From Bdellovibrionota bacterium (GTDB taxonomy: Bacteria > Bdellovibrionota_C > UBA2361 > OMII01), in the NCBI GenBank assembly GCA_044356215.1, contig JBIKWQ010000063.1, positions 1 through 19,615 on the forward strand: 19,615 bases of DNA, in the 5' to 3' direction. The notes below the pieces were generated by a model that saw only the letters and a program-made list of their open reading frames with translations, searched no databases and was not told where the DNA came from. A program made the translations under genes and the position numbers. Of the stretch, positions 1-17,765 are shown in pieces. Position 1 is the stretch's first letter; each line of letters starts with the position of its first letter.

Positions 1-297
1 CTCGCTGGCTCGCATTTTTAGCGGAAGCTCCCTGGTTCAATTCCAGGTGCGGCCAGGAATGGCCCCACCTGGACTTGAACCAGGCATCTACTGTTCGCTT
101 CGCTCACGATTAGAAAATGCTCGCTAGCTCGCATTTTTAGCGGAAGCTCCCTGGTTCAATTCCAGGTGCGGCCAGGAATGGCCCCACCTGGACTTGAACC
201 AGGCATCTACTGTTCGCTTCGCTCACGATTAGAAAATGCTCGCTAGCTCGCATTTTTAGCGGAAGCTCCCTGGTTCAATTCCAGGTGCGGCCAGGAA

Positions 298-322
<25 letters not shown>
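1..322. repeat. Tandem array of 119-bp units (~2.7 copies visible, truncated at window start) made of direct and inverted copies of the tRNA-Ile2 3' end
   Basis: Units start at 1, 120 and 239 and differ only at 7 (g versus a). 60-84 and 179-203 are identical to tRNA 298-322. Inverted copies lie at 20-55, 139-174 and 258-293. Confidence 0.97.
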
Positions 323-371
<49 letters not shown>

Positions 372-1330: not shown

Positions 1331-1720
1331 CAAGAAGGAGTTGAGTGGATGATCGCTTGGTAGTGGGCTTGCTCACTACCGAGAGGAAAGTCGGGACTTC
1401 ACAGAGTGAGTTGGCCGTTAACGACGGCGTCGGGTGACCGACGGAAAGTGCCACAGAAAAGAAGACGACCTATCTCTGTAAAAGGGGATAGGAGACGGTG
1501 AAACGGTGAGGTAAGAGCTCACCAGCGCGTAGGTGACTACGCGGCTTGGTAAACCCCAGCTGAAGCAAGGCCAAATAGGAAGGCGTTCCGTGGAAACGCG
1601 GACGGTGTGACTCGCGCCGGTCCTTCGGGTAGTGCCGCTCGAGCGCGCCGGCAACGGCGAGCCTAGATGAATGATCGTCTTTTAAAGACAGAATCCCGCT
1701 TATAGCTCGACTCCTTCTTG
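1331..1720 (+). ncRNA. rnpB: RNase P RNA, type A
   Basis: GAGGAAAGTC, GGAAAGTGCCACAGAAA, GGTGAAACG, GGTAAACCCC, GAAGCAAGGCCAAATAGG, CTAGATGAATGAT and ACAGAA..GCTTAT motifs. P1 pairs 1331-1346 with 1705-1720. Confidence 0.97.
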
Positions 1721-12006: not shown

Positions 12007-12059
12007 CGAAAAGAGGCAAAACTGGCTACCGCGATGTTTTTCCGCCTACTAATCCCTAG

Positions 12060-12311
12060 GGAAGGCCGGCAAAACCCCTCCCTACTGCGAAAGCGGATCT
12101 TGAGGTGCTCTTCGAGTTTTCGAGATGGGAAAAAATCCTCAATGTATCACAGGGGATACACCTCCGGCCTTCGCTAAAGCTACGGCCGGCGAGGCTTTTG
12201 TCGGACCAGACGTAGCCTTGGCGAAGGCTGGTGCGGTTTTTTCCCATCTCGAAAATCGAATATCAACTCAACCTCCACTTTCTCGCTACGGGTAGGTTTT
12301 GCCGGCCTTCC
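12060..12311. mobile_element. 252-bp MITE, IS5-like ends, flanked by CTAG duplication
   Basis: Perfect 17-bp TIRs GGAAGGCCGGCAAAACC (12060-12076 and 12295-12311); CTAG at 12056-12059 and 12312-12315; internal perfect 19-bp IR (12117-12135 and 12237-12255). Confidence 0.85.
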
Positions 12312-13516
12312 CTAGGCACTAAATAAACCAATCGCGCTCTGTGCTGCATTACCCCCGCATGGCGTTTTGCTTCGTCGCCCCTTCCCCAGAAAAGATCAAC
12401 TCTATTAGTTCCCGTGATCGCGCCACCTGTATCCTGGTCAACGACAAACCTGGATGCAGGAATGAATCGTGGGCCCGATGTCGCGCTATTGTGATCTTCA
12501 TTAAATGTCGGCTTAGAGAACTCGATAAACGCCAGTGCTCCTTTCGGAGCGAAGCGCGGGTCTGTGGCGATTGTTCTTCCAGGGGTCGCTGGAACCCCAA
12601 GAGATGTAATAGCCCTGTCCCTAGATTTGCTAAAGAACACGTAACTCGGGTTTTTAAAAAGGATGCTATCCCGATCAGATGGCGACATCTTCCGCAGCAG
12701 CTCTTCTATGCTGTCGGTGGTTACGGGCTTGGGAGCGATTTGGGCCTTAAGAAATTTACCGATAGCTTCATATCTGTGGCCATTTTTGTCGGCATAGACT
12801 ATGTGTTCCTCTGTTCCATCACTGTGTCTTACAGTTCCAGAGCCTTGAATGTGGAGAAAGAAAGCATCGATCGGGTCAACCCAAACTAACTCTAGGCCTC
12901 TTCCGTCTAGCTTGTTTTCTCCATCGATCTCCGCGCGCGTGAAATATGGAAGAACTTTGTCGCTTTCATGCCTAGCTTTAAGAGGCTTCTCATCTTTGAA
13001 CTTCTCGGAGAAATTAGCTAACTGGACCGAAAGGAGATCCTCTGGTTTCGCTAATAATGCTCGCGAGAAGACCTTGGTTCTATGCCTGTTGCCCGGTATT
13101 ACAGGTTCAAAATAGCTAGTAAGAAGGACCTCGCCCCATGATTGACCACCAAAAAATTCGAAGAAGCGAAAGTTCTCAGATATATATTTAAGCTTCTCAG
13201 ATGTGCTGATGGGCGTATCAAGAACAGAGTTAAGTCTCTCAAGAGCCGTGGCATATTTCGATCTAGCTATCGATATTGAGCCAAAGACCATCTCTTTTTT
13301 AGCTGTTTTCCTGAGGGCTGCGAGCTCAGCGTTGATAGCATCGCTCAACCCAGAGAGCTCTAGGTCATCGCTTAAAGTAGGGGCTGAGATCTCTCGGAAT
13401 GCGGCTGAGGGTCCAGATGGCGTGACTCGCGCGCAAGCGCTTACTGAGCAAACAAGAGCGATAGAAACGATTCTGCATAGCCAACTGGGATGAGGAAATT
13501 TTTGTGTGTAGTTCAT
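12263..13516 (-). CDS. mltA: Membrane-bound lytic murein transglycosylase A (lipoprotein)
   Basis: Lipobox VSAC; TSYFEP, FFLHIQGSG, NPSYVFF, TIATDP, DQDTGGAITG..RVDLFWGRGDEA. Start uncertain. Confidence 0.93.
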   Translation of the reverse strand: MNYTQKFPHPSWLCRIVSIALVCSVSACARVTPSGPSAAFREISAPTLSDDLELSGLSDAINAELAALRKTAKKEMVFGSISIARSKYATALERLNSVLDTPISTSEKLKYISENFRFFEFFGGQSWGEVLLTSYFEPVIPGNRHRTKVFSRALLAKPEDLLSVQLANFSEKFKDEKPLKARHESDKVLPYFTRAEIDGENKLDGRGLELVWVDPIDAFFLHIQGSGTVRHSDGTEEHIVYADKNGHRYEAIGKFLKAQIAPKPVTTDSIEELLRKMSPSDRDSILFKNPSYVFFSKSRDRAITSLGVPATPGRTIATDPRFAPKGALAFIEFSKPTFNEDHNSATSGPRFIPASRFVVDQDTGGAITGTNRVDLFWGRGDEAKRHAGVMQHRARLVYLVPREGRQNLPVARKWRLS

Positions 13517-17240: not shown

Positions 17241-17381
17241 CTTGGGAGTTTCTGGTTACCGCTCCGGGACCCTTACCGGTGTTTGTTGATTGCTCGCTGA
17301 CTTTTAGTTGGTGGCAGCAGTGGGCGCTTTCGTCACTGAGTTCCTGCGGCGTACTGGGTTAATTTGTGCCGTGGAGGGCTC

Positions 17382-17765
17382 ATGTCAAATAAGAAGTTAT
17401 ACGTAGGTAATCTGCCTTTTTCGCTCGGTGATGCCGAGCTGGGAAATCTTTTCTCTCAGGTCGGTACAGTTGTATCTGCCCGAGTTGTTTTAGATCCAGC
17501 TACAGGTCGCAAGCGTGGGTTCGGATTCGTCGAGATGTCAACTCCAGAGGAGGCTCAGGCCGCTGTTGATAGTCTAAATGAGAAAGAAGTAGAGGGTCGT
17601 AAGATCCGAGTTGATATCGCTCAGGAGCGCGCGCCACGTGAAGGTGGTGGTGGTGGCTACCGTGGTGGTGGCGGCGGTGGTGGCGGAGGCGAAGGATTCC
17701 GTCGTCGTCGACCAAACGGCGGTGGAGGCGGAGGACGCTTCTCAGGTGGCGGTGGAGGACGATAA
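17382..17765 (+). CDS. RRM RNA-binding protein with glycine-rich tail
   Basis: RNP2 LYVGNL, RNP1 RGFGFVEM, Gly/Arg tail; SD GGAGG before ATG 17382. Confidence 0.96.
   Translation: MSNKKLYVGNLPFSLGDAELGNLFSQVGTVVSARVVLDPATGRKRGFGFVEMSTPEEAQAAVDSLNEKEVEGRKIRVDIAQERAPREGGGGGYRGGGGGGGGGEGFRRRRPNGGGGGGRFSGGGGGR

What the first reader, a model, noticed from the sequence alone, without database searches (positions are those of the whole stretch)
1..322. Tandem array of palindromic elements whose arms are copies of the adjacent tRNA-Ile2 3' end
Seen: downstream of the tRNA lie near-identical 119-bp units. Each can be read as a 115-bp element (e.g. 60-174) with 34-nt inverted arms (28/34 complementary), both homologous to the tRNA T-arm and acceptor 3' strand, enclosing two small hairpins, with GGAA between elements. 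Established: direct repeats of tRNA 3' ends follow some E. coli tRNA genes (tyrT-type), and integrative elements duplicate tRNA 3' ends, but in direct orientation. Inference: alternating direct and inverted tRNA ends suggest a REP/BIME-like element family that builds its arms from the tRNA and amplifies in tandem, or an array of decoy attB sites or tRNA-mimic RNAs. One mismatch across copies implies recent expansion or homogenisation.
Basis: partly seen in the sequence, partly recalled or inferred. Interest (0 to 1): 0.78.

Follow-up and report, generated by a model that had tools for sequence, protein, structure and literature searches.

The report
tRNA-linked DNA hairpin repeat array
Behind a tRNA gene sits a tandem array of short repeats, each made of a mirror-image copy of the tRNA's end, two small DNA-type hairpins and a direct copy of the end; E. 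coli's long-unexplained tRNA-linked repeats and look-alikes in other bacteria and salt-loving archaea are built the same way, which suggests a shared element that works as single-stranded DNA.

Summary
The array is real: 2.8 copies of a 119-bp unit behind tRNA(CAT), with arms 28/34 complementary and one mismatch. On the tRNA strand each unit is an antisense tRNA end, a 47-nt core with GA-flanked hairpins, and a direct copy of the tRNA's last 25 nt.

A core-blind genome scan gave 45 loci. In 31 the same plan follows a tRNA, in haloarchaea and four bacterial groups. The antisense T-loop matches the local tRNA in 28 of 31. C-GNA-G mini-hairpins, a DNA-specific motif, number 43 on the tRNA strand against 9 opposite.

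Its tRNA-linked repeats (TLR/RtT) carry the same hairpins (35 vs 4) and, in 6 of 13, a clear antisense T-arm. So this is a close-fitting variant of the TLR class, with no sequence homology to RtT.

Best reading: a non-autonomous single-stranded-DNA element that targets tRNA T-arms. No mobilising gene was found nearby. Copy number and the left flank stay unchecked.

The parts
298..371 (-). tRNA(CAT) gene, probably Ile2; CCA not encoded; the target and template of the array
   Evidence: Ile2 label from recalled identity features
294..297 (-). 4-nt junction; loop of the hairpin formed by the tRNA end and the antisense arm
260..293 (-). Unit 1 antisense arm, 30/34 complementary to the tRNA's last 34 nt and 28/34 to the direct arm
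213..259 (-). Unit 1 core, 47 nt, not tRNA-derived
   Evidence: (p 0.41 for a tRNA 5' remnant)
233..256 (-). Core hairpin 1: 7-bp stem, tandem GA/GA, GC-TA-GC tip
214..224 (-). Core hairpin 2 tip: GA-flanked GC-GAA-GC DNA mini-hairpin; the same 11-mer lies just before the direct copy in several E. coli TLRs
179..212 (-). Unit 1 direct arm; 179-203 identical to the tRNA's last 25 nt (T-arm to discriminator)
60..178 (-). Unit 2, identical to unit 1 (antisense arm 141-174, core 94-140, direct arm 60-93)
1..59 (-). Unit 3, cut by the window edge (antisense arm 22-55; the one variant base is at position 7, in the hairpin-1 loop)

Best explanation
The array is a tRNA-linked repeat (TLR-type) array: a small, gene-less element that acts as folded single-stranded DNA on the tRNA sense strand. 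SHOWN: each unit is antisense T-arm + GNA mini-hairpin core + direct copy of the tRNA 3' end; the arms track the local tRNA; the hairpins sit on one strand and covary. INFERRED: when the sense strand is exposed (during transcription or replication), the antisense arm pairs either with the tRNA's own T-arm or with the unit's direct copy. A trans-acting strand-transfer enzyme encoded elsewhere (HUH/Y1-type, tyrosine-recombinase-type or another nuclease; not identified) recognises the GNA-capped structure, breaks at or in the T-loop and joins the core in. This duplicates the tRNA 3' end and leaves the tRNA intact. The antisense arm serves as a base-pairing guide and is copied from, or corrected to, each new target. 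Repeated insertion or unequal exchange between the duplicated ends builds the tandem array. Confidence is about 0.85 for the TLR-type class, about 0.7 for action as ssDNA, and about 0.45 for the whole mechanism.
For: (1) The scan pattern fixed only three T-arm motifs, nothing of the core. It gave 45 loci: 31 tRNA-anchored elements, 6 plain tRNA-operon pairs and 8 without a called tRNA anchor. Five of the 8 score strongly with the haloarchaeal profile. (2) The antisense T-loop equals the local tRNA's in 28 of 31 (permutation mean 6.9, maximum 16 of 20,000). With one locus per tRNA type it is 8 of 9 in archaea (p 0.0015) and 7 of 8 in bacteria (p 0.00035). (3) C-GNA-G hairpins: 43 on the tRNA strand (26 of 31 loci), 9 opposite, shuffle mean 8.3. 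GA-flanked ones: 25 against 0. All four N occur (GAA 19, GCA 12, GTA 6, GGA 6). RNA-type GNRA loops are barely above shuffle (16 vs 12.7) and CUUCGG is 2 vs 2. GCGNAGC mini-hairpins are far more stable as DNA than as RNA and occur at ssDNA priming and promoter sites (PMC13037366, passages). (4) In 18 haloarchaeal units, 94.7% of 450 cells pair, 13 of 25 pairs have two-sided changes (0 of 500 shuffles), and only 6 cells are G-T. The alternative tRNA:antisense pairing is equally kept. (5) In 12 of 12 bacterial loci and in the window, the antisense arm matches the tRNA further 5' of the T-loop than it matches the unit's own direct copy, while direct copies mostly begin at the T-loop: a guide-like asymmetry. 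(6) One core family sits on many different RNA genes. In haloarchaea: Gly, Leu, Ser, Arg, Val. In E. coli: Tyr, Lys, Arg, Pro, Ser and 5S. In L055 the core splits a tRNA-Ala gene just after G53. (7) E. coli: 13 of 18 trailers tested are TLRs, with GNA hairpins 35 vs 4; the 5 non-TLR trailers have 0 on the sense strand. (8) The haloarchaeal hairpin module also stands alone at a fixed place on plasmids; in 2 of 5 fetched it lies beside a gene with a weak SSB-like OB-fold match.
Against: No integrase, transposase, GIY-YIG or reverse transcriptase among 146 near and 125 farther ORFs (5 were repeats; my own rough gene calls; the second call left out the six operon-pair loci), nor among 18 window proteins. 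No ORF family is shared across phyla other than tRNA read-throughs and housekeeping genes. No empty/filled pair of sites was shown. The window's antisense T-loop differs from its tRNA at one base, and its core matches neither the haloarchaeal profile, RtT nor E. coli DNA, so common ancestry is not shown. In Geothrix-group loci the direct copy does not match the tRNA acceptor strand (4-7 of 13). In 7 of 13 E. coli TLRs the antisense match is short and not clearly significant. The 5S TLR has no antisense to 5S (p 0.81). Related genomes inflate the raw counts. The window's plus strand is G-rich (skew +0.09), so the hairpin strand is probably not the lagging-strand template here. E. coli TLRs are transcribed and processed as RNA (PMC8144298).
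Confidence: 0.45

Rival explanations
1. The units are host-kept RNA elements: co-transcribed trailers cut out as small RNAs (like RtT or RrB). The direct copy is a processing site, and the antisense arm tunes pre-tRNA folding or turnover.
For: E. coli 5S TLRs are transcribed, processed and bind Hfq and CsrA; the authors propose the repeat as an RNase E site (PMC8144298, passages and Discussion part 1). In RNA folding, the tRNA plus the antisense part is more stable cross-paired than folded apart in most loci (window: -70.5 vs -44.5 kcal/mol). Orthologous tRNA loci keep the unit across genera.
Against: The loops are GNA triloops with free N, not GNRA or UUCG, and G-U pairs are rare. The reported phenotypes are modest, and the early rtT phenotype was reassigned to a nearby gene. 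The distribution looks patchy: 45 hits among 185,579 genomes with a strict pattern.
Confidence: 0.22
2. The units are shrunken relics or decoys of T-loop-targeting integrative elements: tyrosine-integrase attL/attR scars, or a folded-ssDNA attP used by an Xer- or IntI-like recombinase. They may now soak up phage integrases.
For: Class II integrases use the 7-bp T-loop and need it matched (PMC1762012, passages). Direct copies start at the T-loop and all three loops covary. L055 is broken at the T-loop edge. A folded unit would give a duplex site from one strand, as integron attC and CTX phage do (recalled).
Against: No integrase or remnant in cis. One core on many tRNA types does not fit tRNA-specific attP sites. 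E. coli direct copies start inside the loop and lack the left T-stem, so they are poor decoy attB sites.
Confidence: 0.18
3. The unit arose locally by replication template switching (a direct-inverted-direct triplication of the T-arm) and was then amplified; no dedicated enzyme is involved.
For: The direct-inverted-direct order matches inverted triplications (PMC4689423 and PMC13334657, search listing and abstract start only). The window's 4-nt-loop fold-back, and a bare fold-back after tRNA-Leu in L027, look like such products.
Against: The 47-nt core is not tRNA-derived. Recurrent strand-specific GA/GNA hairpins and covarying helices are not expected from copying errors.
Confidence: 0.1
4. 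The tandem copies are an assembly artefact of a single unit.
For: The units are near-identical and shorter than a usual short read. Such elements often lie at contig ends: 11 of 39 loci within 500 bp of an end, 2.3 expected. Reads could not be checked.
Against: One real difference lies in a loop. Arrays of diverged units exist elsewhere, at 54-87% identity in 6 loci, and the finished E. coli genome has three direct copies after tyrV. An artefact would not explain the unit itself.
Confidence: 0.05

Closest known systems
E. coli tRNA-linked repeats (TLR; tyrT 178-bp repeats; Rfam RtT RF00391)
   Same: Lie directly behind a tRNA gene, end in an exact copy of its 3' end, occur in tandem (definition in PMC8144298). 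Shown here: both also carry sense-strand GNA hairpins just before the direct copy, and often an antisense T-arm.
   Different: No sequence match to RtT or E. coli DNA (the RtT model does hit E. coli TLRs). The direct copy is 25 nt with the whole T-arm, against 18-19 nt. The antisense arm is longer (34 nt) and folds straight back over a 4-nt loop. There is no terminator-like site in 1-600.
REP / BIME / REPIN with RAYT
   Same: Short, gene-less palindromes in clusters; RAYT acts on single-stranded REP DNA (PMC3733652, passages).
   Different: The arms come from the local tRNA. No RAYT nearby. The single GTAG is the tRNA's own sequence. No dispersed copy in the other 19 kb of the window.
tRNA-targeting integrative elements, class II (T-loop) tyrosine integrases
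   Same: Duplicate the tRNA 3' end from the T-loop on; T-loop identity matters (PMC1762012).
   Different: Only about 120 bp, no integrase, carries an inverted T-arm, and one core occurs on many tRNA types.
Haloarchaeal PATEs and SMRs (IS200/IS605-related)
   Same: Small non-autonomous palindromic repeats in haloarchaea (PMC3119063, passages).
   Different: Described there as making no target duplication; the passages seen link partial tRNA copies only to prophages or their remnants.

Membership tests
TLR class (PMC8144298 definition) | Located in or directly behind a tRNA or rRNA gene | tested here: met
   starts 1 nt after the discriminator
TLR class (PMC8144298 definition) | 3' end identical to the last 18-19 nt of the upstream RNA gene | tested here: met
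   25 of 25 nt identical
TLR class (PMC8144298 definition) | One to five copies per locus | tested here: inconclusive
   at least 2.5 copies, cut by the window edge
RtT RNA (Rfam RF00391) | Score at or above the family's gathering threshold | tested here: not met
   no hit at gathering or at E up to 10; positive control hits E. coli TLRs; no hit in the 40 loci scanned
TLR class / RtT | Transcribed and processed to a defined RNA | not testable with these tools
   needs RNA data
REP/BIME/REPIN | GTAG or CGTC tag at the foot of the palindrome | tested here: inconclusive
   one GTAG precedes the T-arm copy but is shared with the tRNA; no CGTC; not seen at that place in the aligned relatives
REP/BIME/REPIN | RAYT gene flanked by the repeat | tested here: inconclusive
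   none in the window or the loci; left flank and rest of genome unseen
REP/BIME/REPIN | Many dispersed extragenic copies | tested here: inconclusive
   none elsewhere in 19.6 kb; genome not available
T-loop integrative element | Direct duplication of the tRNA end from the T-loop | tested here: met
T-loop integrative element | Integrase gene between attL and attR | tested here: not met
   119-bp units; no ORF of 80 aa or more in 1-460
Haloarchaeal tRNA-linked unit family (found here) | Sequence match to the profile of 18 units | tested here: not met
   no window hit at E up to 1; only the architecture is shared

The most novel reading that the evidence does not exclude
TLRs, RtT and this array are the footprints of one cross-domain class of DNA-guided mobile elements. 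A GNA-capped ssDNA core carries an antisense 'guide' that is rewritten from each new tRNA target. An unidentified trans-acting enzyme uses guide-target pairing at the T-loop to insert the core and duplicate the tRNA end. That would be a natural, self-programming, base-pairing-directed insertion system.
Probability: 0.3. Interest if true: 0.88.

Novelty: new variant of a known kind. Interest (0 to 1): 0.62.

Why it matters
TLRs have been known in E. coli since 1978 and are described as having no known function; they have been studied as RNAs (PMC8144298). The window shows their plan in an unusually clean form. It points to two features that the passages I saw do not mention: an antisense copy of the local T-arm, and one-strand DNA mini-hairpins. 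The same plan recurs in haloarchaea and several bacterial groups. This turns an old open question into direct tests in E. coli K-12 (loop swaps, strand swaps, guide swaps, a hunt for the enzyme). If a guide-directed insertion enzyme exists, it would be a new targeting chemistry at a near-universal safe site. It also matters in practice: these units often sit at contig ends and, at relaxed thresholds, are called as pseudo-tRNAs.

Tried and rejected
Direct relatives of the window's unit: none in plasmids or E. coli genomes; the phage rows listed (30 of 2140 records) matched the tRNA or its T-arm only. The source genome was not among the 45 scan hits, so the left flank could not be extended. Virus and metagenome contig collections stayed unchecked, and the cluster look-up for window proteins could not be made.

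Idea that the unit is a decayed full inverted tRNA: rejected (p 0.41 in the window; 1 of 32 loci under 0.05).

GIY-YIG association (a recalled lead): no motif match in ORFs of 70 aa or more and no Pfam hit. No shared mobilising gene by all-against-all BLASTP of 2,985 ORFs.

Relaxed ARAGORN was noise and was not used for counts. Rfam at E up to 10 gave only sub-threshold hairpin matches. The haloarchaeal profile does not reach the window. Searches with haloarchaeal, gammaproteobacterial and E. coli units against phages and plasmids found chromosome-like copies and the plasmid hairpin module, but no enzyme-bearing form among the ten hits fetched.

Dropped before counts: 6 operon pairs (L011, L016, L023, L024, L027, L043) and 8 loci without a called tRNA anchor (L005, L008, L015, L019, L021, L029, L031, L035). 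In E. coli, 7 of 25 tRNA genes had spacers under 40 nt and were skipped.

Literature: ten searches found no paper describing antisense arms or ssDNA hairpins in TLRs. Rudd 1999 is not held, and the supplements of PMC8144298 were not read; either may already note the inverted arm.

Full report
Observation. The window begins with 2.8 copies of a 119-bp unit directly behind a minus-strand tRNA(CAT) at 371..298. On the tRNA strand a unit (297 to 179) reads: a 4-nt junction; a 34-nt antisense copy of the tRNA 3' end (30/34); a 47-nt core; and a direct copy whose last 25 nt are exact. The antisense arm can pair with the tRNA end (z -11.9) or with the direct copy (z -9.9). The core has two hairpins with GA-flanked tips, one of them GC-GAA-GC. 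The single variant base lies in a loop. The rest of the window is housekeeping (zinc-ribbon protein, RNase P RNA, lptA, lptC, a DAHP/KdsA-family synthase, CTP synthase and others), with no mobility gene.

Generality. My one genome scan asked only for three T-arm motifs in direct-inverted-direct order and gave 45 loci. Six are ordinary tRNA pairs, 8 have no called tRNA anchor, and 31 are tRNA-anchored elements. Of the 31, 19 are haloarchaeal and 12 bacterial (Geothrix group, Gammaproteobacteria, two actinomycete MAGs and UBA10199; names from record titles, higher ranks recalled). The two free T-loop positions of the antisense arm match the local tRNA in 28 of 31. After collapsing to one locus per tRNA type the match is 8 of 9 and 7 of 8. 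The window itself is one of the mismatching cases. Direct copies mostly run from the T-loop to the discriminator or beyond, while in all 12 bacterial loci the antisense arm matches the tRNA further upstream than it matches the direct copy. The Geothrix-group loci depart from this: their direct copies do not match the acceptor strand. Six loci have arrays of diverged units. Eleven of 39 loci lie within 500 bp of a contig end against 2.3 expected, so copy numbers from short reads are unreliable, here too.

DNA rather than RNA. The core was not part of the scan pattern, yet C-GNA-G hairpins number 43 on the tRNA strand and 9 opposite (shuffle mean 8.3). GA-flanked ones number 25 against 0, with all four N; RNA-type loops are hardly enriched. 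In 18 haloarchaeal units both alternative structures covary beyond all or nearly all shuffles, with only 6 G-T cells in 450; relatedness inflates these counts. GCGNAGC mini-hairpins are much more stable as DNA than as RNA and occur at phage and plasmid ssDNA priming and promoter sites (PMC13037366, passages). The haloarchaeal hairpin module also occurs without arms at a fixed place on plasmids, beside TFIIB-like genes (3 of 5 fetched) or weakly SSB-like genes (2 of 5). In one plasmid tRNA array it splits a tRNA-Ala gene at the T-loop edge.

The link to E. coli. Thirteen trailers end in an 18-19-nt copy of the tRNA end. Six of these have a clearly significant antisense T-arm (tyrT, tyrV, lysQ, lysV, proK, serX); the others have only short matches. 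The 13 units hold 35 GNA hairpins on the sense strand and 4 opposite, against a background of about 1 per kb, with the last hairpin 5-19 nt before the direct copy; the 5 other trailers have none on the sense strand. The 5S-linked repeat has two GNA hairpins and an inverted T-loop-like word but no antisense to 5S. PMC8144298 (passages and Discussion part 1) defines TLRs by the 3' copy, counts 22 in K-12, and states that they have no known function. The word 'inverted' does not occur in its main text. The window meets that definition but does not match the RtT model (control) or E. coli DNA. It is a TLR by plan, not by detectable descent. It also misses the haloarchaeal profile, so convergence on one plan is not excluded.

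Mechanism. The best reading is a non-autonomous ssDNA element whose antisense arm pairs with the tRNA T-arm, and whose insertion by a trans-acting enzyme duplicates the tRNA end; arrays then grow through the duplicated ends (0.45). Architecture, arm tracking, strand bias and covariation are shown. The enzyme, the act of insertion and the rewriting of the arm are inferred. No candidate enzyme lies in cis, but my pattern could only find short, gene-less units. Rivals are a processed-RNA role (0.22), integrase relics or decoys (0.18; T-loop crossover in PMC1762012, passages), template-switch triplication (0.10) and an artefact of copy number (0.05). REP/RAYT systems (PMC3733652, passages) and haloarchaeal PATEs (PMC3119063, passages) are analogies only; PMC3184786 (passages) added nothing.

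Verdict. The feature is real and belongs to a known but unexplained class, so it is not categorically new. What is new, as far as ten searches and the passages read show, is the shared hidden plan, its reach into archaea, and the sign that it works as DNA. Rudd 1999 and the supplements of PMC8144298 were not seen and could lower this. Left flank, reads, source genome, and virus and metagenome contigs remain unchecked. Interest 0.62.

Noticed in passing
window 12055-12317: A second, 263-bp nested palindrome between convergent genes (outer arms about 24 nt, inner arms 19 nt perfect). It has GTA/GAA purine-rich internal loops on both strands and looks like a MITE- or REPIN-type element; no real plasmid match.
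   Followed up: partly
window 1337-1718: RNase P RNA class A, flanked by a 27-nt inverted repeat (1319-1345 / 1706-1732).
   Followed up: no
L055 1927-2069 (Haloarcula halophila plasmid): An array of at least 20 tRNA genes on a plasmid; one tRNA-Ala gene is split by the haloarchaeal core just after G53.
   Followed up: partly
L049-L053 about 2001-2030: A conserved GA/GNA hairpin about 70 nt past a TFIIB-like or SSB-like gene; similar short matches occur on many haloarchaeal plasmids. A possible single-strand origin or transfer signal.
   Followed up: partly
L001, L004, L018, L030, L042, just after the first unit: A second unit type follows, ending in a shorter copy of the tRNA acceptor strand, with GNA hairpins on the opposite strand.
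   Followed up: no
L027 1767-1812; L016 4023-4075: Between two tRNA genes, a bare inverted copy of the first tRNA's 3' end or T-arm, without a direct copy; possibly a minimal or decayed form.
   Followed up: no
L008 1885-2042; L031 4001-4122 and 1448-1531: T-loop-like direct and inverted motifs in two Bacillota MAGs, with a different AT-rich core and no tRNA anchor called; unexplained.
   Followed up: no
L063 258-430 (E. coli rrnB T1-T2): The 5S-linked repeat between the widely used rrnB terminators contains an inverted T-loop-like word and two GNA hairpins, hinting that it came from a tRNA-linked unit.
   Followed up: partly
window 17364-17765: RRM-domain RNA-binding protein with a glycine-rich tail; source of the short 15-bp tandem repeat.
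   Followed up: no
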